From assembly GCA_902619265.1 (NCBI GenBank), contig CACNDL010000004.1, forward strand, positions 2,513 through 66,512: a stretch of DNA of 64,000 nt, written 5' to 3'. Below the pieces are notes generated by a model that saw only the letters and a list, made by a program, of their open reading frames with translations, made no database searches and had not been told where the DNA came from. This DNA comes from an uncultured SAR86 cluster bacterium (lineage in GTDB: Bacteria; Pseudomonadota; Gammaproteobacteria; Magnimaribacterales; TMED112). Position 1 is the stretch's first letter. The number at the start of each line of letters is the position of its first letter. Made by a program: the position numbers and the translations under genes. Shown piece by piece: positions 1 through 11,767 of this stretch.

Positions 1-868
1 CGTTTATCTTTCTTCCGGCTAGAATTATTTCCGGATTGTATCCTACCTGCTGAGCTTTATGAGTAAGATAATATGGGTCTACTCCAATGCAATGGCCACC
101 AACTAAGCCTGGTTTAAATGGTATAAAGTTCCATTTAGTTTCTGCAGCTCTGAGCACTTCACTAGTGTCTATGTCTAGAATATTAAAAATTTTGGACAGC
201 TCATTTATTAAAGCTATATTTACATCTCTTTGAGTGTTTTCAATTACTTTAGCTGCCTCTGCAACTTTGATACTTGAAGCTTTGTATGTGCCTGCAGTTA
301 TTATTGAGCCATAAAGATCATCGATAAATAAAGCAGCTTTCTTGCTTGAGCCAGAAGTAATTTTCAGTATTTTTGTAATTGTATGAACTTTATCACCCGG
401 GTTAATCCTTTCTGGCGAATATCCAACAAAAAAATCGTCATTTAATTTTAATTTTGAAATTTCTTCTAGTAATGGGACACATACTTCTTCTGTCGTTCCA
501 GGATAAACTGTTGACTCATAAATTATGAAGCTACCGTTCTTTACATACTTAGAAACAGTTTTTGTAGCCTCAACAATTGGTGAAAGATTTGGCTCTTTAT
601 CATCATTTATAGGTGTCGGAACAGTTACGATAAATACATTACAGTGAGATAAGTCACTTTCATTGTATGAAAAATTCATTGATGATTTTTTTAATTCATC
701 ATTTTCGACTTCATTAGTATTATCTTTCCCTGAAATGAGTTGCTTTATTCTTTTTGAATTTACATCAAATCCTATGACTTCATACTTTTTTGAAAATTCA
801 ATAGCGAGAGGAAGCCCCACATAACCAAGACCAATAACACCTATTTTAATTTTTTCTTTAGGTATCAT
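1..868 (-). CDS. Nucleotide-sugar dehydrogenase (WbpO/TviB-like UDP-HexNAc 6-dehydrogenase), 3' end outside window
   Basis: Not in the ORF track; translated by hand from ATG at 868: [22 protein letters not shown]..., with [31 protein letters not shown] and catalytic [12 protein letters not shown] motifs. Confidence 0.9.
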
Positions 869-1365: not shown

Positions 1366-2229
1366 TCAAATTTTATCATCGAACGAAACATTTTGCTCAG
1401 ATTCGCGTTCATCAAGGCCTTTATATCTAGACCTAATTCTATTATTTTTTTTGATTACAGATTTTAAAACTGAAAGATCGATATTTAAACTTTCTCCAAG
1501 TTTAGCTAATGCCAAGCTATCTTTTGGGAAACATGCTCCTCCGAAACCTTTTTTTCCATCATGGCCAGGAACATTCATGTGGCTAATACCCAACCTGTTA
1601 TCACTAGATATAATTTTTATTATTGACTCCCAAGAATCGTTTACATTAAGCTTTTGATAAACCTCATAAAGCTCATTAAAAAATATTACTTTTGAAGCTA
1701 AAAAAGTATTTATTGCATATTTAATCAATGAGGCAGTTTCTGTATCAGTAAATATATGATCTTTTGTGACGCAACGCGAATGATCATAGTATGCTTGAGA
1801 GACCACTTTTGATATATTTTTTTTACCCCCAAATATCAAAAATTTAGAATTGATAAAATCTTCATTAGCATGCTTTTCCCTGAGAAATTCGGGATTATAG
1901 ATAAGGTTTTGATCTAATTTTTTTAATTCATTTAGTATTGATGGTAATACAGTACTCTTTACAACTTTGATGCTTGATGAGCATTTGCAGACTAATTCTT
2001 TTACAACACTTTTTAAAATCGATGCATCTTGATCACCATCATTGCCCATTGGAGTTGGAACACATATGAAAATTATATCTGGCATAAATTTACTGAGGTC
2101 CGAGATAGTAGTGTTTAACTTTGGATCAACTATGAATCTTTCAACATTTTTATGAAAGCCCCAGTCAGTAGCCTTACCAACGAAACCATGTCCAACAATG
2201 CCTAATTTTAGTTGTTTATTTTCTTTCAT
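1366..2229 (-). CDS. UDP-glucose/GDP-mannose dehydrogenase family protein, short form without the C-terminal domain
   Basis: GHGFVG Rossmann motif, CVPTP, KSTV, YNPEFLRE, catalytic GFGGACFPKD; only 287 aa. Confidence 0.85.
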   Translation of the reverse strand: MKENKQLKLGIVGHGFVGKATDWGFHKNVERFIVDPKLNTTISDLSKFMPDIIFICVPTPMGNDGDQDASILKSVVKELVCKCSSSIKVVKSTVLPSILNELKKLDQNLIYNPEFLREKHANEDFINSKFLIFGGKKNISKVVSQAYYDHSRCVTKDHIFTDTETASLIKYAINTFLASKVIFFNELYEVYQKLNVNDSWESIIKIISSDNRLGISHMNVPGHDGKKGFGGACFPKDSLALAKLGESLNIDLSVLKSVIKKNNRIRSRYKGLDERESEQNVSFDDKI

Positions 2230-4880: not shown

Positions 4881-5702
4881 ATGATCTACAAAAAATTTAA
4901 AGATAAATATTTCCAACTATTCGTTAAAGGTGCTCTAAATGGTGTTTTTGAAAATGATCTAGATCTCATTAAAAAGTCTGTTAATAAGCATTTAGTTATC
5001 GTTTGTTCTCCTAAGTCTGGGAGTACCTGGTTAACTCGATCGCTACAGGAAATAACAAGTTTTAAAAGACTTGATCTTATCGCAAGCTTTGAGCGCAGGG
5101 AACAAGAAATTGATTTTTATCATTTGTTGCAACAAAAACCATCTGGAGAAATATTATCACCTCATATTCATCTCAAATATAGTGAATTTTCGGAAAATTT
5201 ATTCATGTCTATTGGCTCAAAGATTATCTTACAAGTACGAGATATTTTTGATTCTGTAATAAGCCTTGTTGATCATGTTGATAAAGAAGGTGTTAAATTT
5301 CCAAGCGCATTTATTGATCATGAGTCATGGATTAGTTTTTCAAGATTTGAAAAAATTGAGTTCATAATTGATATGGCAATTCCTTGGTATATATCCTTTT
5401 ATGCTGGATGGTATAATTCAAAAATTTTTCAATCGGGAGGAGTTTATCTAATCACATATGAAGAATTGTTAAAAAGTACTGCAGAAGAAATAAAGAATAT
5501 CCTTGATTGGGCAGACATAAAAAAGGATAAAAGTGAAATTATTCTAGCCCTTAAGAACACTTCAAAAATAAATACTAGAAAAAATGTTGGCCGAGCAGGT
5601 CGTGGATCGGAAATACCAGTACCACTGAAAAAAAAGATAATTAAAATGGCTGCTTATCATCCAAATGTTGACTTTGGGCCCTTAGGAATTGGTTTAGATT
5701 AG
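4881..5702 (+). CDS. PAPS-dependent sulfotransferase
   Basis: 5'-PSB loop SPKSGSTWL, 3'-PB motif VRDIFDSVIS, ITYEEL, C-terminal RKNVGRAGRG. Confidence 0.8.
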   Translation: MIYKKFKDKYFQLFVKGALNGVFENDLDLIKKSVNKHLVIVCSPKSGSTWLTRSLQEITSFKRLDLIASFERREQEIDFYHLLQQKPSGEILSPHIHLKYSEFSENLFMSIGSKIILQVRDIFDSVISLVDHVDKEGVKFPSAFIDHESWISFSRFEKIEFIIDMAIPWYISFYAGWYNSKIFQSGGVYLITYEELLKSTAEEIKNILDWADIKKDKSEIILALKNTSKINTRKNVGRAGRGSEIPVPLKKKIIKMAAYHPNVDFGPLGIGLD

Positions 5703-6470
5703 ATCATCCGATTGGGATCTAAGACCCCTTGCTAAAAAGTTTGGATTAAGAAGATTAGATTTATTATATTTTAGGTTTTGTTTTTTTACAGATATAAGCT
5801 CACCGCCGGCTTCTTGTAAAATTAAATCAGCTGCAGCGGTATCCCATTCCATCGTTGGCCCATATCTAGGATAAAAATCTGCAATGCCTTCGGCAACCTT
5901 ACATATTTTCAATGAGCTACCATACTGCAACACATTAATATCATATCTTTTTGAAAGCTTAACAATAAAAGCTTCAGTTTCTTTATTTAAATGAGATTTA
6001 CTAGCTACAATGTTTATTTTTTCTTCAATTGATTGATTTGAATGTATCTGTACTCCATTTTTATATGCTCCCTTATCCTTTTCAGCGTAAAATAATTCAT
6101 TTCTTCCAGGTACATATACAATTGAAAAAATCGGATATTCATCAAAGCATAGTGCTACATTTAACGTGTAATCGTTACTTTTATTTAGGAATTCTTTCGT
6201 CCCATCAATAGGATCAACTAGCCAAAACCAGTTCCAGCTTTCTCTTTCAATGTAATCAATATTCTTATTCTCTTCAGAGATTATATTTTGGTAATCTGTT
6301 TTCTTTATGAATTCATTTAAACTTTTATTTACTAAATTATCTGCTTCTGTAAGTGGTGATCCATCTTCTTTTAGTTCATATCTAATCTTTCGTTTTTTTA
6401 TATTCTCAGCCTCTTTGCCAAGATCTTTCAAAAGACTAAATAAATAATTTTTTTCTTTTGTACTAATCAT
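5694..6470 (-). CDS. cysQ: 3'(2'),5'-bisphosphate nucleotidase
   Basis: KEDGSPLTEAD, ISEE, WLVDPIDGTKEF, ASKSH, GSSLK, YPRYGPTMEWDTAA. Confidence 0.92.
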   Translation of the reverse strand: MISTKEKNYLFSLLKDLGKEAENIKKRKIRYELKEDGSPLTEADNLVNKSLNEFIKKTDYQNIISEENKNIDYIERESWNWFWLVDPIDGTKEFLNKSNDYTLNVALCFDEYPIFSIVYVPGRNELFYAEKDKGAYKNGVQIHSNQSIEEKINIVASKSHLNKETEAFIVKLSKRYDINVLQYGSSLKICKVAEGIADFYPRYGPTMEWDTAAADLILQEAGGELISVKKQNLKYNKSNLLNPNFLARGLRSQSDDLI

Positions 6471-6697
6471 CAGCTACGACCTATTTTTATGTAACGGAAC
6501 CATATTCTTTCGTGAATGTAATATAAAACCATTTTTGTAAGAATTTCGAAAGTTGCGATTCCTGCTGCCCAATCGACTTTCCCTGTTATTAACAGAGAAA
6601 TAATGAAAGTATCAGTGGTAGCTATTACACGCCAGGAAATAGTTTTATAGAGATGTCTTAATTTAAGGTTGTTTTCTTTTTCAGAGTTTGCCTTCAT
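6470..6697 (-). CDS. DUF2061 small membrane protein
   Basis: RHLYKTISWRVIAT...KMVLYYIHERIW signature; two hydrophobic helices. Confidence 0.8.
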   Translation of the reverse strand: MKANSEKENNLKLRHLYKTISWRVIATTDTFIISLLITGKVDWAAGIATFEILTKMVLYYIHERIWFRYIKIGRS

Positions 6698-7070
6698 CTC
6701 GCATTTTTTTTCTTATGTTTGTTGCGCTTATATTATGTATTTCATCTTCAAAGACTTCTTCTTCAAAGACATAACCAACACCTCTTCCATATGTGATATT
6801 TACTATGTTTGGCACAAGCATAATTTCGTATTCTTTCCCTCTTCTAAAACCATCTTTTGCTAATCCATTTTCAATATTTTTGCACACAGTTTCCCAGTCA
6901 AATGGGTTATCATCTTGACCAGCACCCCCTGATGCCCCTTGAACATCTCTTACTTGTATTGCTACTTGACCTGTCTTTGCAACACATCTTTTAAAAAGTG
7001 CCTGGTGGCCATCATGCCATGGCTGCCATCTTCCAAGCATCTGTACAGTTGGTTTTTTCCAATCAAACAT
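6681..7070 (-). CDS. Small HxGH nucleotidyltransferase; candidate minimal ATP sulfurylase
   Basis: GRWQPWHDGH, YGRGVGY and ISATNIR motifs; overlaps its neighbours, the APS kinase and DUF2061. Confidence 0.7.
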   Translation of the reverse strand: MFDWKKPTVQMLGRWQPWHDGHQALFKRCVAKTGQVAIQVRDVQGASGGAGQDDNPFDWETVCKNIENGLAKDGFRRGKEYEIMLVPNIVNITYGRGVGYVFEEEVFEDEIHNISATNIRKKMRDEGKL

Positions 7071-7470
7071 TTTTTAACTCCTTTAAAATAATTTTTGGCG
7101 TGTCCTCTTTCCACTCAGTTATATGAAAGTTTACTTTTTTGGGTGGTTCAAAAATTTTATTTGTGTCATCAAATCTACCTTTTTCAATTGTATCCATCCA
7201 AATGATTATATCTGGATTAAATATCTCTCTTGTTCTTTCTGTAGGACAGACAAAATCGCATATTACATATCTTCCATGAGACTTTTCAAACTCTGCAAAG
7301 GTATTCATGCGCTGGCTTTGTCTTGATCTTCCTTCATCAGAAAAATCCCAATCCCCAGCCATTTCTCTAACATTGTCTGCGTTATACCAAGCACACTTCA
7401 TAATTTCTTTTAATTTTTTTGCTAGATAAGTTTTTCCACTGCCGGGAAGACCCATAATTAGTATTTTCAT
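7063..7470 (-). CDS. Adenylylsulfate kinase-like P-loop kinase (short form)
   Basis: MGLPGSGKT, NADNVR, DWDFSDEGR, CDFVCP and FEPP align with CysC motifs; 135 aa. Confidence 0.75.
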   Translation of the reverse strand: MKILIMGLPGSGKTYLAKKLKEIMKCAWYNADNVREMAGDWDFSDEGRSRQSQRMNTFAEFEKSHGRYVICDFVCPTERTREIFNPDIIIWMDTIEKGRFDDTNKIFEPPKKVNFHITEWKEDTPKIILKELKNV

Positions 7471-7655: not shown

Positions 7656-8477
7656 TTACTTTTTGAAAACTTTTTTTGCTGCCCTAAGAATTATTGGAGG
7701 ACATACATCTTTAACAAATGCATTAAAGTTAAAGGGGTTCTCAAACTTCTCATTTTCTCTTTCTCTAAATAAAGTACTATGTTTAGATTTATTGCTAAGC
7801 ACCTCATTAGCTGGCCTTCCCCTGGAAAAATAATAATATGCTAAAGATTTTCTACTTCTATCTTCTGGACACATTAATGCGTCAGGGTGTCCATGATAAG
7901 TAAACGATGTCGTCGTAAATATTACGCATTTATTAAAATTTGGAAGAATTGATTGAACAGGACTTCCCATTGAATCATTAAAAAGCTCAAGTCTCCCTCC
8001 CCAAGACTCATCCCAATCTTTATTTAAGTATATTAATAAATTTAATCTTCTGTCTAAATCTAAACTTGGATGCTTATTAAAATCTGCGTGAACCTTTAGA
8101 AGACCTCCTTTTTTAATTTCATGGTAACCTCCTCCTGCAAGGTAAGGGTCTGAAATCAAAGGCTCTTTGATACCAGTTAGCGTGTTAAGCCAATTAAGCA
8201 TTAAATCTGATTGCATGTAACTATTTAACTCTAGTGCACTTTTACTAATATGACGCATTCCTTTACTAGCAAGTTTAATTTCTTTTTCATTCTCAAATTG
8301 AATTTTAGAGTCTTTTAGTTTTGATAAATCTGGAAACTCATCCTCAACTCTAGATAATAAGTCGCCAATGAAAAAGTCTTCCATAACAATGTGAGGAAAT
8401 GGATCAGCTTTTAAGTAATCTTTTTTGTGCTTTTCAGCATCAAGCCATTTTTTATTTATAATATCTGATAATTCCAT
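7656..8477 (-). CDS. 2OG-Fe(II) oxygenase family protein
   Basis: PFPHIVMEDF, HADFN (HxD), RRLNLLIYLN, HGH, RKSLA. Confidence 0.85.
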   Translation of the reverse strand: MELSDIINKKWLDAEKHKKDYLKADPFPHIVMEDFFIGDLLSRVEDEFPDLSKLKDSKIQFENEKEIKLASKGMRHISKSALELNSYMQSDLMLNWLNTLTGIKEPLISDPYLAGGGYHEIKKGGLLKVHADFNKHPSLDLDRRLNLLIYLNKDWDESWGGRLELFNDSMGSPVQSILPNFNKCVIFTTTSFTYHGHPDALMCPEDRSRKSLAYYYFSRGRPANEVLSNKSKHSTLFRERENEKFENPFNFNAFVKDVCPPIILRAAKKVFKK

Positions 8478-8527: not shown

Positions 8528-9877
8528 CTAATAATTATAAGAATCTCCTTTGAAAGGGCCATTCTCCTTAACGGAAATATATTCTTGTTGATGTTTTGTT
8601 AACTTTGTTAATGTACCTCCAAATCCTTGAACCATAAGAGCTGCAACTTCCTCATCAAGCTTCTTTGGAAGAACTTTAACATAAAGCTCTTTTTCTTCTG
8701 GTCTTTTTGAAGCATAACCATCTTTAAATAATGCTATTTGTGCTAAAACTTGGTTACAAAATGATCCATCCATAACTCTGCTTGGATGTCCAGTAGCTAA
8801 TGCTAAATTAACAAGCCTTCCTTCACCTAATAATAATAAATAGTCCTCATCAGATCTTTTAACTTTATGGACACCCGGCTTAACTTCATACCATTCAAAA
8901 GTTTTAAGATGCTTGATATCTATTTCATTGTCAAAATGGCCAATATTGCATATGACACAGCCTGACTTTAAAGCATCAAGCATAAATTTATCTAGAACAT
9001 TAATATTACCTGTTGTTGTAACAACTAAATCATATTTTTTTAGTAATTCTTTATTAAGTTTTGTTCCATCACTAGTAACTTCACCTTTCTGATAAGCTGA
9101 AACTACAGAAAAACCGTCAAAACACGCCTGCATAGCGCATATTGGGTCCACTTCTGTAATATCAACAATCATTTTTTGCTGGGCGAGAGAGTCTGCAGAG
9201 CCTTTGCCAACATCTCCGTATCCTATTACAAGCGCTTTTTTACCGGCTAACAGCATGTCTGTGCCTCTTTTTATCGCGTCATCAAGACCATGCCTACAGC
9301 CGTACTTATTATCATTTTTGGATTTAGTCAAAGAATCATTAACGTTGATTGCTGGCACCTTAAGCTCTCCAACTTCGAGCATTTCTTTAAGCCTCTTAAC
9401 ACCTGTTGTTGTTTCTTCAGAAATACCATGAATTTTTTCTAGCATATCAGGATATTCCTTGTGAACTTTGACAGTTAAATCGCCTCCATCGTCTAGAATC
9501 ATATTGGCATTCCATGGTTTGCCATCTTTATTAATTGTTTGATCAAGACACCACTCATATTCTTCTTCTGTTTCACCTTTCCAAGCAAAAACTGGAATTC
9601 CTTTTGCAGCAATAGCTGCAGCAGCATGGTCTTGGGTAGAAAAAATATTGCATGATGACCATCTCACTTCTGCACCTAAGTCAATTAGTGTTTCTATAAG
9701 AACTGCTGTTTGAATAGTCATGTGAATACAACCCATAATCTTTGCACCTTTAAGAGGCTGCTCGTCACGATAATTTTCTCTCAATTGCATAAGAGCTGGC
9801 ATTTCATCTTGTGCGAGTAAAATTTCTTGTCTTCCAAATTCTGCTAACGAAATATCTTTTACTTTATAATCATTCAT
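8528..9877 (-). CDS. ahcY: Adenosylhomocysteinase
   Basis: [55 protein letters not shown]; start placed at MNDYKV. Confidence 0.97.
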
Positions 9878-10649
9878 CTTTATTGCCTTCATAAAACTCT
9901 AATCTTTCAATATCATCTTCAGAGGTCTCATCACCATATTGAATCTCAATTATTCTACATTCTTCAGTGTAAGGATTATATATTTGATGCCAATCTTCTT
10001 TGCCTACTTTGAATACATCATGCAAATCTAGTTTTTCAACATGCTTATCTTTTTGTTTAGCCCTCTGATACTTAACATCACATCTGCCTTTAGAAACAAA
10101 CCAAATCTCATCTCTATTAAAATGTCTTTGCAAACTCATACCTTTTCCGGCATGAATTATTAACTCTTTTAATTTAATTTTTTCATTCTTGTAAAGATTA
10201 AAAAATTTTCCCCAAACCCTATCTTCAGCTTCGCCAAGCCAATTTTTAAGAATCCAACTGCTTGAATTCTTTTTATCGTCACCACCAACTCCAAATTCAA
10301 ATTCTATATTTTCAACAATCATTTCTGGTATATTAGTTTTATCTCGATCGCCACCATTACAAAAAATTATTTGGTTTTCAGGATAAGAAAGCTTGATTTG
10401 TTCTAATGCATTACAACAACTTCCATCACTATCATCAAAATCTATAACCTCATTAACTGCTTTCAGATTTTCTAAAATTTCTTTTCTTTCATTAAAAGAC
10501 ATAAATGGTTGTCCTTTTTTTTCTGTTAGCCAATTATCAGAATTTAAAGCTACTATCAGGTGATCTCCAAGTAAGCTAGCCGTATTGATATATGCAAGAT
10601 GACCAGAATGTAAAGGATCAAAACCTCCACTTACAACGATAATTTTCAT
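9870..10649 (-). CDS. Cytidylyltransferase (HxGH) fused to a mannose-6-phosphate isomerase-type cupin
   Basis: [16 protein letters not shown] and NSSSWIL, then RVWGKF, MSLQRH, WHQI and IIEIQYG..EDDIER; ATGA overlap with the metK stop. Confidence 0.8.
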
Positions 10650-11767
10650 AGTTTTTTTGCTTTTTCCCACTCAAAACCAATATTTTCTCTGCCAAAGTGT
10701 CCATAAGAAGCAGTTTTTAAGTAAATTGGGGTTAAGAGGTCTAAGTTTTTAATCAGGCCAGATGGTGATAGATCAAAGTTTTCATTAACAATTTTATTGA
10801 TTTTATCTAAACCTAATTTTTCAGATTCAAATGTGTTGATATAAATTGATACAGGTTCAGAAATGCCAATGGCGTAAGATGCTTGTACTTCACAATAATC
10901 GCAAAGATCATTCTTTACTAATGACTTAGCTACTTGCCTAAGCCCATAAGCAGCTGAGCGATCAACTTTTGTTGGGTCTTTGCCTGAAAAACCTCCACCA
11001 CCATGTCTAGCCATACCACCATAGGTATCTACAATAACTTTTCTTCCAGTTAAGCCACAGTCACCAACTGGACCTCCTATAACAAAACGGCCAGCAGGGT
11101 TAATTAAATATTTAGTTTTATTGTCTAGAAGTTTTTTAGGTAAACATGAATCAATAATTTGTGTTTTAACGATTTCTCTTAAGTCCTCCAAATCCAGATC
11201 ATCACTATGCTGTGTTGATAGAACAATTGAATCAATTCGTTTTGGTTGATAATTTGAATCGTATTCTATAGAAACTTGAGATTTTGCGTCTGGTCTTAAT
11301 CCAAGGCCCTTAGATTTTCTTATTTCTGAGTGTTTGAGCACTAATTTATGAGCTAAAGCAATTGGTAATGGCATAAGTTCTGGGGTCTCTTTGCAGGCAT
11401 AGCCAAACATCAAACCCTGATCTCCTGAGCCTAAAACCGCATCTCCTGAGATACCAGCATCAATATCTTTGCTCTGCTCAGATATTAGATTTTGAAATTC
11501 AAAGCTAGCGCTAGTAAATCCAAGATCATCTTCGATATACCCTATATCTTTAACTACATTTCTCGCTACAGTTTCATAATCTACATTAGCGATAGACGTA
11601 ATCTCTCCAGCAACAACAACTGTATTATTTTTTATAAGAGTCTCACAAGCTACTCGAGAGTTTGGATCTGATTTAAGACATTCATCTAATATTGCATCAG
11701 AAATTTGATCACAAATTTTGTCAGGATGCCCTTCTGAAACTGATTCAGACGTGAAGATATAAGACAT
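10646..11767 (-). CDS. metK: S-adenosylmethionine synthetase
   Basis: FTSESVSEGHPDK, GDQG, GLTGRK, GGGGFSGKDPTKVDRS. Confidence 0.97.
   Translation of the reverse strand: MSYIFTSESVSEGHPDKICDQISDAILDECLKSDPNSRVACETLIKNNTVVVAGEITSIANVDYETVARNVVKDIGYIEDDLGFTSASFEFQNLISEQSKDIDAGISGDAVLGSGDQGLMFGYACKETPELMPLPIALAHKLVLKHSEIRKSKGLGLRPDAKSQVSIEYDSNYQPKRIDSIVLSTQHSDDLDLEDLREIVKTQIIDSCLPKKLLDNKTKYLINPAGRFVIGGPVGDCGLTGRKVIVDTYGGMARHGGGGFSGKDPTKVDRSAAYGLRQVAKSLVKNDLCDYCEVQASYAIGISEPVSIYINTFESEKLGLDKINKIVNENFDLSPSGLIKNLDLLTPIYLKTASYGHFGRENIGFEWEKAKKL

What the first reader, a model, noticed from the sequence alone, without database searches (positions are those of the whole stretch)
5694..7470. Candidate miniature PAPS-synthesis module: a 129-aa HxGH protein in place of ATP sulfurylase
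Seen: four overlapping, co-oriented genes (135-aa APS kinase-like, 129-aa HxGH nucleotidyltransferase, DUF2061, cysQ) converge on a sulfotransferase, and there is no cysD/cysN or full-length sat in the window. The small protein carries three motifs in the same order as the Sat catalytic domain: GRWQPWHDGH (Sat QxRNPxHxxH), YGRGVGY (Sat GRDHAGVGxY) and ISATNIRKKMRDEG (Sat ISGTxxRxxLxxG). Established: sulfotransferases need PAPS, made by ATP sulfurylase plus APS kinase; CysQ removes inhibitory PAP; Sat belongs to the HxGH superfamily but is about three times longer. Inference: the gene usually labelled cytidyltransferase is a stripped-down ATP sulfurylase, giving sulfate to PAPS in under 270 aa.
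Basis: partly seen in the sequence, partly recalled or inferred. Interest (0 to 1): 0.9.

Follow-up and report, generated by a model that had tools for sequence, protein, structure and literature searches.

The report
Candidate third type of ATP sulfurylase
A 129-residue enzyme, paired with a miniature APS kinase, sits exactly where a close relative carries the standard sulfate-activating genes, so it is probably a new kind of ATP sulfurylase, and it may fill a long-noted gap in the sulfur metabolism of the ocean's most abundant bacteria.

Summary
Four overlapping minus-strand genes converge on a sulfotransferase: a 135-aa APS-kinase-like gene (KIN), a 129-aa HxGH nucleotidyltransferase (NT), DUF2061 and CysQ. 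The 89%-complete genome shows no Sat, CysD or AprB.

By profile search NT is related to NadM-type NMN adenylyltransferases (E 1e-8), and no Sat appears even at E ≤ 10.

- **In-situ displacement.** A same-genus genome carries CysD + CysN/CysC–DUF2061–CysQ in the same syntenic slot.
- **Pairing and fusions.** KIN lies beside NT or is fused to it in 71 of 80 loci. DUF2061–NT and DUF2061–canonical-CysC fusions also exist.
- **Exclusion with CysD.** 0 of 143 NT-positive genomes have CysD, against 10 of 99 NT-negative ones.
- **SAR86-like order.** 53 of 54 NT-positive genomes have no known APS source. A sulfotransferase lies within 1.5 kb of NT in 22 of 25 genomes of one family.
- **SAR11 order.** NT tracks APS reductase AprB (88 both, 1 NT only, 3 AprB only, 29 neither) and often lies beside aprMBA, where sat sits in sulfur oxidisers. 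Four genomes keep NT and AprB without KIN.

Caveats: nothing is biochemically shown, phage homologs sit beside NADAR genes, and four NT-positive genomes also have Sat. Confidence is about 0.72.

The parts
7063..7470 (-). KIN: miniature APS kinase (135 aa)
   Evidence: PF01583, 33.3 bits over the 21.1 cut-off. AF2 model pLDDT 93.6. Foldseek best matches are APS kinases with TMq 0.82-0.87, against 0.52-0.71 for gluconate and shikimate kinases. G7, G12, K13, D32, R35, F43, R48, F73, P76 and R81 are invariant with a canonical APS kinase domain, P0310. Lies next to NT or is fused to it in 71 of 80 loci.
6681..7070 (-). NT: 129-aa HxGH nucleotidyltransferase, proposed non-canonical ATP sulfurylase (sulfate adenylyltransferase)
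   Evidence: No Pfam family. Profile related to NadM-type NMNATs at E 1.2e-8, with no Sat. AF2 model pLDDT 89.7. Sits in the slot that CysD+CysN/CysC fill in congener G012. 0 of 143 NT-positive genomes have CysD. Co-occurs with AprB in 88 of the 92 SAR11-order genomes that have either.
6470..6697 (-). DUF2061 small membrane protein, conserved accessory of sulfate-activation operons; role unknown
   Evidence: PF09834, 75.2 bits. Also lies between CysN/CysC and CysQ in G012. Fused to NT in P0143 and to a canonical APS kinase in P0310. Lies between KIN and NT in L010.
5694..6470 (-). CysQ-type 3'(2'),5'-bisphosphate nucleotidase (removes PAP)
   Evidence: PF00459, 160.4 bits; TIGR01331, 222.7 bits, just under the 228.8 cut-off. 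58% identical to the CysQ at the syntenic place in G012. A CysQ lies within 8 kb of NT in 14 of 80 loci.
4881..5702 (+). Sulfotransferase, the presumed PAPS consumer, convergent with CysQ
   Evidence: PF00685 Sulfotransfer_1, 53.4 bits. Followed by a Polysacc_synt-like flippase, an epimerase and UDP-glucose/GDP-mannose dehydrogenase genes.

Best explanation
The 129-aa protein (NT) is a sulfate adenylyltransferase (ATP sulfurylase) of a third, previously unrecognised lineage. It derives from NadM-type NMN adenylyltransferases, not from Sat or CysDN.

Inferred mechanism:
1. The HxGH motif (H19-x-G-H22) and the ISATxIR motif hold ATP, as in other HxGH nucleotidyltransferases.
2. The roughly 40-residue acceptor segment of NMNAT is replaced by a short loop (P87-N88...Y94-G95-R96-x-V-G-Y100). 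Together with R41/D42 and N55-P56, this loop forms a pocket for the small acceptor, sulfate.
3. Sulfate attacks the alpha-phosphate, giving APS + PPi.

In the window:
- The overlapping 135-aa APS kinase (KIN) pulls the unfavourable reaction forward by making PAPS.
- The convergent sulfotransferase uses PAPS on a polysaccharide or glycan.
- CysQ destroys the by-product PAP.
- DUF2061 is a conserved membrane accessory of unknown role.

In SAR11-type genomes the same enzyme probably runs mainly in reverse, with AprMBA: sulfite + AMP -> APS, then APS + PPi -> ATP + sulfate.

Shown here: gene anatomy, family relationships, folds, fusions, synteny and phyletic patterns. Inferred: substrate, reaction direction and residue roles.
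For: **1. In-situ displacement.**
- Window: PheT-MetK-CT/cupin-AhcY-2OG-KIN-NT-DUF2061-CysQ.
- Same-genus G012: PheT-MetK-CT/cupin-AhcY-CysD (NF009214, 490 bits, cut-off 413)-CysN/CysC (NF004035, 853.6 bits, cut-off 715)-DUF2061-CysQ.
- KIN is the CysC equivalent, so NT stands in for CysDN.

**2. Canonical versus short kinases.** In the SAR86-like order, the only 2 full-length APS kinases among 41 PF01583 hits are the CysN/CysC fusions of G012 and G066. Those are the two CysD-positive, NT-negative genomes. The other 39 hits are short KINs beside NT.

**3. CysD exclusion.** CysD is in 0 of 143 NT-positive genomes and in 10 of 99 NT-negative ones across two orders.

**4. No other APS source.** 53 of 54 NT-positive genomes of the SAR86-like order have no Sat, CysD or AprB, yet they carry KIN and sulfotransferases.
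- Cross-tabulation of NT against Sulfotransfer_3: 51 both, 3 NT only, 10 sulfotransferase only, 57 neither.
- A sulfotransferase lies within 1.5 kb of NT in 22 of 25 NT-positive genomes of family f2, and upstream of KIN-NT in L016-L019 and L021.

**5. SAR11 order and AprB.**
- NT against AprB: 88 both, 1 NT only, 3 AprB only, 29 neither. Only 4 of 121 have Sat.
- KIN-NT lies directly beside an AprM-like/AprB/AprA cluster in 13 of 80 loci. That is the place of sat in sat-aprMBA (PMC3779200, passages).
- Four genomes keep NT and AprB with no KIN anywhere in the assembly.

**6. Fusions.** Eight of the 10 long hits scanned are KIN-NT fusions, one of them with an added DUF4118. DUF2061-NT also exists, as does DUF2061 fused to a canonical APS kinase.

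**7. KIN is an APS kinase** by family, fold and invariant residues.

**8. Not a housekeeping enzyme.** CoaD and RibF are present in the window's own genome. NT was found in only 1 of 29 other congeners sampled.

**9. The gap is known.** The literature treats SAR11 as having AprBA and 'cysC' but no sat or cysDN (PMC5069961 and PMC12636525, passages).
Against: - No enzymatic or genetic data exist.
- NT shows no detectable sequence relationship to Sat. Its nearest relatives are bona fide NMN adenylyltransferases.
- Sat's sulfate-binding QXRN loop and its GxxKxxD loop are absent, and equivalence of the GRD loop is unresolved (PMC3779200).
- Foldseek does not favour Sat: TMq is 0.36-0.45, against 0.63-0.64 for archaeal NMNAT.
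- The 12 phage records with a homolog are Sano/Salvo-like phages and DLP_6. In the two Sano/Salvo-like records inspected, the fusion sits right after a NADAR/COG3236 gene, with no annotated sulfation genes in the stretches viewed. That could point to NAD or ADP-ribose chemistry.
- Four NT-positive genomes also have Sat (G001, G187, G190, G218).
- Ten Sulfotransfer_3-positive genomes lack NT, and eight of those also lack CysD. They are MAGs and may be incomplete.
- In 32 of 80 loci (the Pelagibacteraceae core type), the immediate neighbours are C1, DMSP-like and CoA genes, not APS/PAPS genes.
- Four Bacteroidota loci have NT with no adjacent KIN.
- Genomes within an order are related, so the number of independent events behind the phyletic counts is small: at least two genera for the CysDN/KIN-NT alternation.
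- In SAR11, AprBA could itself supply APS to KIN, so the 'no other APS source' argument holds only for the SAR86-like order.
Confidence: 0.72

Rival explanations
1. KIN+NT is a split, miniaturised NadR-like NAD salvage pair. KIN phosphorylates nicotinamide riboside and NT adenylylates NMN to give NAD+. This would be useful to streamlined cells, and to phages countering NAD-depleting defences.
For: - The NT profile is significantly similar to NadM-type NMNATs and shares the GRxQPxHxGH, NPF and SxTxIR motifs.
- The best whole-chain fold match is archaeal NMNAT.
- In the two Sano/Salvo-like records inspected, the phage KIN-NT fusion directly follows a NADAR gene.
- A phage NadR-like RNK+NMNAT system (NARP3) has been shown to rebuild NAD+ (PMC13464706, abstract and passages).
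- KIN gives a weak AAA_28 hit (21.7 bits, cut-off 27). I recall AAA_28 to be the family of NadR's kinase domain.
Against: - KIN is APS-kinase-like by HMM (above cut-off), by fold (TMq 0.82-0.87) and by invariant residues.
- NT scores far below the NMNAT equivalog cut-offs: 22.8 against 181.2.
- Only NT residues 74-95 stand opposite MJ0541 residues 65-107.
- NARP3 has the opposite domain order, full-size domains and a PnuC partner (PMC13464706).
- The cellular contexts are all about sulfur nucleotides: CysD/CysNC displacement, CysQ, sulfotransferases, AprMBA and Xsc.
- Exclusion with CysD and covariation with AprB have no NAD rationale.
Confidence: 0.09
2. The pair makes a PAPS-like but different activated donor. 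NT joins a nucleotide to another small anion or phosphate ester, and KIN adds the 3'-phosphate. The precedent is CDP-phosphoramidate 3'-phosphate in Campylobacter capsule synthesis.
For: - Cj1415-Cj1418 make CDP-phosphoramidate 3'-phosphate from glutamine, ATP and CTP (PMC11800397, passage).
- That Cj1415 is a CysC homolog and Cj1416 a nucleotidyltransferase is recalled, not from a call.
- The window cluster lies in a polysaccharide locus.
- The NT acceptor pocket is uncharacterised.
Against: - The syntenic alternative in a congener is the true sulfate-activating CysD+CysN/CysC.
- The partners are sulfotransferases, CysQ and APS reductase, not glutamine-kinase or amidohydrolase-type genes.
- NT persists with AprBA without KIN in four genomes.
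Confidence: 0.07
3. NT acts on APS but not as a PPi-dependent sulfurylase. It could be an APS:phosphate adenylyltransferase (ADP-forming) or an APS-cleaving enzyme that disposes of the AprBA product. The APS source in SAR86-like genomes would then still be unknown.
For: - Tight NT-AprB covariation, and NT kept without KIN.
- No test here separates Pi from PPi as co-substrate.
Against: - HxGH nucleotidyltransferases use NTP/PPi chemistry (established knowledge of the superfamily).
- 53 of 54 NT-positive genomes of the SAR86-like order have KIN and sulfotransferases but no other APS source.
- CysDN displacement implies APS synthesis.
Confidence: 0.06

Closest known systems
Sat-type homo-oligomeric ATP sulfurylase (PF01747), e.g. 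Allochromatium vinosum Sat in sat-aprMBA
   Same: - Proposed reaction: ATP + sulfate <-> APS + PPi.
- HxxH-bearing nucleotidyltransferase alpha/beta fold, shared over about 80 columns.
- A C-terminal [IV]SG[ST]xxR-type motif.
- Placement next to aprMBA, and frequent pairing or fusion with an APS kinase.
   Different: - No sequence or profile similarity.
- 129 aa, against 335-355 aa for the four SAR11 Sat ORFs.
- No PUA-like N-domain.
- No QXRN or GxxKxxD loops (PMC3779200, passages).
- Nearest relatives are NMNATs.
CysD/CysN(-CysC) sulfate-activating complex
   Same: - Fills the same operon slot ahead of DUF2061-CysQ in a congener.
- Supplies APS/PAPS.
- No overlap in the genomes sampled.
   Different: - CysD is a PP-loop ATP pyrophosphatase-type protein driven by the CysN GTPase, about 920 aa in G012.
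- KIN+NT is 264 aa, has no GTPase and has an unrelated fold.
NadM/NadR-type NMN adenylyltransferases (e.g. MJ0541, Francisella NadM, phage NARP3 Bas30_86)
   Same: - Closest relatives by profile, E 1.2e-8 to 9.8e-5.
- Shared GRxQPxHxGH, NPF and SxTxIR motifs.
- Best whole-chain fold match.
   Different: - Scores far below the family cut-offs.
- About 40 residues shorter, with the segment between the fourth strand and the 'GY' position replaced by PNIxNIxYGRGVGY.
- Partnered with an APS kinase, not an RNK.
- Sulfur-gene contexts, not NAD-gene contexts.
Bifunctional PAPS synthases (metazoan PAPSS1/2; Aquifex Sat-APS kinase)
   Same: - Kinase and sulfurylase on one polypeptide.
- In the 630-aa PAPSS1 chain the kinase match lies at residues 56-139, so it is N-terminal. 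That is the same order as the roughly 260-aa KIN-NT fusions.
   Different: - The PAPSS sulfurylase domain is Sat-type.
- KIN-NT is less than half the size.
- The kinase lid region is shortened.
Campylobacter jejuni Cj1415/Cj1416 (CDP-phosphoramidate 3'-phosphate synthesis)
   Same: A nucleotidyltransferase plus a 3'-kinase make a PAPS-like donor for capsule decoration (PMC11800397, passage; the family assignments are recalled).
   Different: It uses CTP and a glutamine-derived phosphoramidate and needs two further enzymes. No such genes were seen beside KIN-NT.

Membership tests
Sat-type ATP sulfurylase (PF01747) | Match to the family HMM, or profile similarity to solved Sat structures | tested here: not met
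   No Pfam family at E <= 0.01. No Sat among PDB profile hits at E <= 10. hhalign against four Sat sequences gives 21% probability and is non-collinear.
Sat-type ATP sulfurylase (PF01747) | QXRN (RNP) loop just before HXXH, whose Gln and Arg bind the sulfate of APS (PMC3779200) | tested here: not met
   NT has G13-R14-W15-Q16-P-W-H19-D-G-H22. At the positions of Q/x/R/N it has G/R/W/Q.
Sat-type ATP sulfurylase (PF01747) | HXXH motif | tested here: met
   H19-D-G-H22. H19 is invariant in 16 sequences and nearly invariant in 30. The motif is shared by the whole HxGH superfamily.
Sat-type ATP sulfurylase (PF01747) | GRD loop and GxxKxxD mobile loop | tested here: inconclusive
   No GxxKxxD in the 129 aa (read). 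YGRGVGY contains G-R, but hhalign pairs Sat's GRDHAG with NT's V-R41-D42 instead, at low confidence. No residue-level superposition was available.
Sat-type ATP sulfurylase (PF01747) | Catalyses ATP + sulfate <-> APS + PPi | not testable with these tools
   Needs an enzyme assay or complementation.
NadM/archaeal-type NMN adenylyltransferase | Significant sequence or profile similarity, with the GRxQPxHxGH and SxTxxR motifs | tested here: met
   1f9a 1.2e-8, 4yp7 2.2e-7, 2qjt 3.9e-7. The motifs align.
NadM/archaeal-type NMN adenylyltransferase | Reaches the curated family cut-off (TIGR01527 / NF002243) | tested here: not met
   22.8 bits against 181.2, and 24.9 bits against 127. Only residues 11-85 match.
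NadM/archaeal-type NMN adenylyltransferase | Full acceptor (NMN-binding) segment between the core strands and the C-terminal motif | tested here: not met
   The profile alignment covers MJ0541 residues 5-64 and 108-135. Only NT residues 74-95 stand opposite MJ0541 65-107. That this segment binds NMN rests on PMC13464706 passages for a NadR-type enzyme and on recall.
APS kinase (CysC, PF01583), for KIN | Family HMM above the gathering score | tested here: met
   33.3 bits against 21.1, profile positions 5-90 of 152. Fused homologs reach 61.2 bits. The equivalog TIGR00455 is not reached, at 25.2 against 138.7.
APS kinase (CysC, PF01583), for KIN | APS-kinase fold | tested here: met
   Model pLDDT 93.6. 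TMq is 0.82-0.87 to plant, fungal, human and archaeal APS kinases, against 0.52-0.71 for gluconate and shikimate kinases.
APS kinase (CysC, PF01583), for KIN | P-loop and substrate-site residues shared with a canonical enzyme | tested here: met
   G7, G12, K13, D32, R35, F43, R48, F73, P76 and R81 are invariant across 11 KIN-family sequences and the canonical domain of P0310. The roles of these residues are recalled. The C-terminal lid region is shorter.
Sulfate-activation operon (sulfurylase + APS kinase + CysQ) | Interchangeable in situ with the canonical genes | tested here: met
   G012 has CysD-CysN/CysC-DUF2061-CysQ. The window has KIN-NT-DUF2061-CysQ, between the same flanks: AhcY/MetK/PheT on one side and UGDH on the other.
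CysQ (TIGR01331) | Equivalog cut-off | tested here: inconclusive
   222.7 bits against a cut-off of 228.8. The G012 orthologue beside CysDNC scores 226.4. PF00459 is clearly met.

The most novel reading that the evidence does not exclude
A third, NadM-derived class of ATP sulfurylase exists. It is the missing enzyme of the SAR11 AprMBA pathway, turning organosulfur-derived sulfite into sulfate with substrate-level ATP gain (APS + PPi -> ATP). It is also the only sulfate-activating enzyme of most SAR86-like bacteria. It spreads by horizontal transfer across phyla and into phages, and DUF2061 is a dedicated membrane partner of sulfate activation in general.
Probability: 0.5. Interest if true: 0.9.

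Novelty: new variant of a known kind. Interest (0 to 1): 0.82.

Why it matters
- **A new enzyme class.** ATP sulfurylase is the entry point of sulfate into biology, and I recall only two enzyme types (Sat and CysDN). A third, 129-residue type would be the smallest known. It would also be a clear case of an NMN adenylyltransferase scaffold re-tooled for an inorganic acceptor.
- **A gap in ocean sulfur metabolism.** Papers from 2016 and 2025 describe SAR11, the most abundant marine heterotroph, as having APS reductase and a 'cysC' but no sulfurylase, and call its pathway 'incomplete' (PMC5069961 and PMC12636525, passages). This gene pair would complete it. It would add an ATP-yielding step to the oxidation of sulfite from taurine, DMSP-type and sulfonate compounds, which bears on ocean sulfur and energy budgets.
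- **Annotation.** Thousands of metagenomic 'cytidyltransferase' or 'hypothetical' entries would be re-annotated. Pathway tools that score SAR86 and SAR11 as unable to make PAPS would need correcting.
- **Application.** A PAPS module of about 264 aa could be useful for engineered sulfation.
- **Testability.** The claim can be tested directly with standard assays.

Tried and rejected
**Structure as discriminator.**
- The NT model is confident, but Foldseek gave no hit at E <= 0.001 and only the generic HxGH fold. It cannot separate sulfurylase from NMNAT, PPAT or TagD.
- No residue-level superposition was possible.
- hhalign of NT against Sat was weak and non-collinear.

**Complex prediction.** KIN+NT returned 'no answer' (score 0.00). 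It is not evidence either way.

**Housekeeping roles rejected.**
- CoaD (TIGR01510, 184 bits) and RibF are present in the window's own genome.
- NT was not found in 28 of 29 congeners, nor in family f4 (0 of 30).
- The 373-aa CTP_transf_like protein in L084 got no NCBIfam name, so NadD in this genome is unresolved.

**DUF2061 fusions.** The 'longer' search gave 60 hits. Most are tandem DUF2061 of about 150 aa. One is fused to a canonical APS kinase.

**Neighbourhood search.** The window's own Sulfotransfer_1 sequence found no neighbour in the 80 loci. Sulfotransferases there belong to PF13469.

**Literature.** Ten searches found no paper that assigns this family a function.
- 'DUF2061' with 'sulfotransferase' gave 0 papers.
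- 'DUF2061' alone gave 6 papers, seen as a listing only.
- Supplements were closed. Fig. S13 of PMC12636525 and the supplementary tables of PMC5069961, which may list these genes, were not seen.

- Expression tools (look-up of sequencing runs, read laying) were not used.

**Unpublished genome.** The counts include the unpublished genome G236 (NT-positive, AprB-positive). Without it they would be NT 88 of 120, AprB 90 of 120 and both 87.

Full report
**1. What is in the window**

One search confirms four overlapping minus-strand ORFs:
- KIN, 7063-7470, 135 aa
- NT, 6681-7070, 129 aa
- DUF2061, 6470-6697, 75 aa
- CysQ, 5694-6470, 258 aa

Their tail overlaps by 9 nt the 3' end of a plus-strand sulfotransferase (4881-5702).

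Family scans give:
- KIN: PF01583 APS_kinase, 33.3 bits (cut-off 21.1), over the first two thirds of the profile.
- DUF2061: PF09834.
- CysQ: PF00459 and TIGR01331, 222.7 bits (cut-off 228.8).
- Sulfotransferase: PF00685.
- NT: no Pfam family, and only sub-threshold NCBIfam hits to archaeal NMN adenylyltransferase.

The cluster lies beside a Polysacc_synt-like flippase, an epimerase and two UDP-glucose/GDP-mannose dehydrogenase genes. Housekeeping genes flank it: AhcY, a cytidylyltransferase-cupin fusion, MetK, PheST, UvrC and PGI.

The genome is 0.97 Mb in 10 contigs, 89.1% complete, with G+C of about 33%. It has no Sat, no CysD and no AprB. Its only APS-kinase-like gene is KIN. Names on 87-88% identical proteins ('SAR86 cluster bacterium', 'Gammaproteobacteria bacterium') suggest a SAR86-like marine gammaproteobacterium.

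**2. What NT is related to**

The family is large:
- 8000 of 8000 scored candidates hit in the word-indexed search.
- 1029 50%-identity clusters at E <= 0.001, and 417 at E <= 1e-10.

It has invariant or near-invariant GRxQPxHxGH, GQV, R41-D42, N55-P56, P87-N88-I89, Y94-G95-R96-x-V-G-Y100 and ISATxIR.

A profile of 30 members matches NadM-type NMN adenylyltransferases in the PDB: MJ0541 at 1.2e-8, M. thermoautotrophicum NMNAT at 2.2e-7, and Francisella NadM at 3.9e-7. No ATP sulfurylase appears up to E = 10. The alignment covers NT residues 9-85 and the C-terminal motif. Only NT residues 74-95 stand opposite MJ0541 residues 65-107.

The AlphaFold model is confident (pLDDT 89.7), but Foldseek finds only the generic HxGH fold:
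- Archaeal NMNAT: TMq 0.63-0.64.
- PPAT: 0.48.
- Sat: 0.36-0.45 over 80-84 columns.
- Nothing at E <= 0.001.

hhalign against four SAR11 Sat proteins gives 21% probability and a non-collinear alignment.

Parey et al. (PMC3779200, passages) define Sat by the QXRN, HXXH, GxxKxxD and GRD loops. NT has HxGH, but G-R-W-Q where QXRN should be, and no GxxKxxD. NT is a shortened NadM-like nucleotidyltransferase with a remodelled acceptor region.

**3. KIN is a real, compact APS kinase**

- Its model (pLDDT 93.6) superposes on plant, fungal, human and archaeal APS kinases with TMq 0.82-0.87. Gluconate and shikimate kinases give 0.52-0.71.
- In an alignment with the canonical APS-kinase domain of P0310, residues G7, G12, K13, D32, R35, F43, R48, F73, P76 and R81 are invariant. 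The C-terminal lid region is shorter.

**4. KIN, NT and DUF2061 form one functional unit**

Of 80 related loci:
- 69 have KIN immediately upstream of NT, and two more (L076, L081) have them fused.
- Ten loci have NT without KIN.

Fusions:
- Eight of the 10 long database hits scanned are KIN-NT fusions of 259-395 aa, one of them with an added DUF4118.
- P0143 is DUF2061-NT.
- L010 has KIN-DUF2061-NT.
- P0310 is a tandem DUF2061 fused to a full-length APS kinase.

**5. The decisive comparison: in-situ displacement**

Across 121 genomes of the window's order:
- NT is in 54: family f1 has G000 plus 1 of 29 others, f2 has 25 of 31, f3 has 27 of 30, and f4 has 0 of 30.
- Sat is in 1 (G001).
- True CysD is in 2 (G012, G066).
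- AprB is in 0. The same search found 91 of 121 in SAR11, so the search works.

Of 41 PF01583 hits, only two are full-length. Both are CysN/CysC fusions beside CysD, in G012 and G066, which are exactly the NT-negative genomes. The other 39 are short KINs beside NT. Within two genera (g1 and g15), genomes carry either KIN+NT or CysD+CysN/CysC.

I fetched the G012 region and compared gene orders.
- G012: PheT-MetK-CT/cupin-AhcY-CysD (490 bits, cut-off 413)-CysN/CysC (853.6 bits, cut-off 715)-DUF2061-CysQ-(PseF-like)-UGDH.
- Window: PheT-MetK-CT/cupin-AhcY-2OG oxygenase-KIN-NT-DUF2061-CysQ-sulfotransferase-flippase-epimerase-UGDH.

KIN is the counterpart of the CysC domain, so NT is left as the counterpart of CysDN, the ATP sulfurylase.

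**6. Consumers and the lack of another APS source**

In the same 121 genomes, Sulfotransfer_3 genes track NT:
- 51 genomes have both, 3 have NT only (G000, G050, G096), 10 have sulfotransferase only, and 57 have neither.
- Per family, sulfotransferase is in 2 of 29, 30 of 31, 29 of 30 and 0 of 30.
- G000 has the Sulfotransfer_1 gene of the window instead.
- In family f2, a sulfotransferase of about 365-375 aa lies within 1.5 kb of NT in 22 of 25 NT-positive genomes. It lies just upstream of KIN-NT in L016-L019 and L021.

Fifty-three of 54 NT-positive genomes have no Sat, CysD or AprB. An APS kinase and PAPS-dependent enzymes would then have no substrate unless NT, or something unrecognised, makes APS.

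**7. The SAR11 connection**

In 13 of 80 loci, plus one cut by a contig end, KIN-NT lies directly beside a four-gene cluster:
- a 265-aa protein with four long hydrophobic segments (AprM-like),
- AprB (TIGR02060, 190 bits, cut-off 135.65),
- AprA (TIGR02061, 995 bits, cut-off 641.75),
- a 116-aa protein of no known family.

Three of these loci also have CysQ. In Allochromatium, sat is co-transcribed with aprMBA (PMC3779200).

Nine further loci read CysQ-KIN-NT. Six of them have a true Xsc (sulfoacetaldehyde acetyltransferase, 956 bits), a sulfite-releasing enzyme, a few kb upstream.

Across 121 genomes of the SAR11 order:

| Feature | Count |
|---|---|
| NT and AprB together | 88 |
| NT only | 1 |
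| AprB only | 3 |
| Neither | 29 |
| Sat | 4 |
| CysD (all NT-negative) | 8 |

In many genomes the two genes are hundreds of kb apart, so the co-occurrence is not just linkage.

Four genomes (G246-G249) keep NT and AprB but have no KIN anywhere in the assembly. This ties NT to APS itself rather than to the kinase.

Smith et al. 2016 (PMC5069961, passages and Table 3) and a 2025 ISME J paper (PMC12636525, passage) both describe SAR11 as having AprBA (and 'cysC', cysQ) but lacking sat and cysDN. They suggest that AprBA removes sulfite. NT would supply the missing APS <-> sulfate step.

**8. Evidence pointing the other way**

- Nothing is shown biochemically.
- NT's relatives are genuine NMNATs.
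- Atlas look-alikes are largely viral.
- Twelve phage records carry a homolog. In the two Sano/Salvo-like records inspected, a 246-aa KIN-NT fusion sits right after a NADAR/COG3236 gene, and in one of them before a DNA methyltransferase. No sulfation genes are annotated in the stretches viewed.
- A NadR-like RNK+NMNAT system does rebuild NAD+ in other phages (PMC13464706). It has the opposite domain order, full-size domains and a PnuC partner.
- Four NT-positive genomes also have Sat.
- Ten sulfotransferase-positive genomes lack NT.
- 32 of 80 loci (the Pelagibacteraceae core type) place KIN-NT among DmdA-like, MTHFR-like, Rieske, enoyl-CoA hydratase, SBP56/methanethiol-oxidase-like, CoA-binding, DMGDH and ETF genes, not among APS genes.
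- Four Bacteroidota loci have NT alone.
- The phyletic counts come from related genomes and overstate independence.

**9. Verdict**

The most likely reading (about 0.72) is that NT is a non-canonical, NadM-derived sulfate adenylyltransferase. It forms a minimal PAPS-synthesis module with KIN, and it works with AprMBA in SAR11.

Rivals:
- A miniature NadR-like NAD salvage pair (about 0.09).
- A PAPS-like but different activated donor (about 0.07).
- A non-PPi APS-converting enzyme (about 0.06).

Ten literature searches found no description of this function. The novelty is a new enzyme lineage for a known reaction and a known operon logic. If true, it would matter for marine sulfur cycling and for genome annotation.

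Noticed in passing
L090:4157-5333; L092:3157-4333; L091:4599-5330: Sano/Salvo-like phages of Xylella, Stenotrophomonas and Xanthomonas, and phage DLP_6, carry a KIN-NT fusion of about 246 aa annotated 'kinase' or 'Adenylylsulfate kinase'. In the two Sano/Salvo-like records inspected it overlaps an upstream NADAR/COG3236 gene. Its role in phages is unknown.
   Followed up: partly
L002-L004, L009, L012: NT proteins 81-87% identical to the window's occur in Marinoscillum/Bacteroidota and Neomarinimicrobiota MAGs. This suggests recent transfer between phyla. The Bacteroidota loci have no adjacent KIN and sit beside Exo_endo_phos and hydrolase genes.
   Followed up: partly
window 9870-10670 (-): A fusion of a cytidylyltransferase (RfaE domain II-like) with a mannose-6-phosphate-isomerase-type cupin lies between AhcY and MetK. 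It is conserved at 61% identity at the same place in congener G012.
   Followed up: partly
window 7656-8477 (-): A 2OG-Fe(II) oxygenase lies between AhcY and KIN and has no counterpart at that position in G012. An annotated Fe(II)-dependent oxygenase also lies about 1 kb upstream of the KIN-NT fusion in phage DLP_6 (L091:3072-3623).
   Followed up: no
L043:1524-1874 (-) and 13 other loci: A conserved, non-hydrophobic 116-aa protein with no Pfam or NCBIfam family ends the AprM-like/AprB/AprA cluster and abuts NT in the aprBA-type loci.
   Followed up: no
L046-L081 (32 Pelagibacteraceae loci): In the SAR11 core arrangement, KIN-NT sits among genes suggesting methyl-sulfur and C1 metabolism. These include a DmdA-like GcvT-family gene (below its equivalog cut-off), an MTHFR-like gene and an SBP56/methanethiol-oxidase-like gene.
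   Followed up: no
L029, L031, L033, L036-L038: A true Xsc (sulfoacetaldehyde acetyltransferase, which releases sulfite) lies a few kb upstream of CysQ-KIN-NT, with a Na/Ca-exchanger-family gene in between.
   Followed up: partly
L084:883-2004 (own genome, contig C1): A 373-aa protein with a C-terminal CTP_transf_like domain has no NCBIfam name. Whether it is this genome's NadD is unresolved.
   Followed up: no
P0124, P0271, P0145: These database entries show internal duplications of NT or DUF2061 segments, or NT joined to a chorismate-synthase fragment. They are probably assembly or gene-calling artefacts.
   Followed up: no
window 2-868 (-) and 1366-2229 (-): Two UDP-glucose/GDP-mannose dehydrogenase-family genes lie close together at the edge of the window. 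The second matches the N-terminal NAD-binding profile only from position 76.
   Followed up: no
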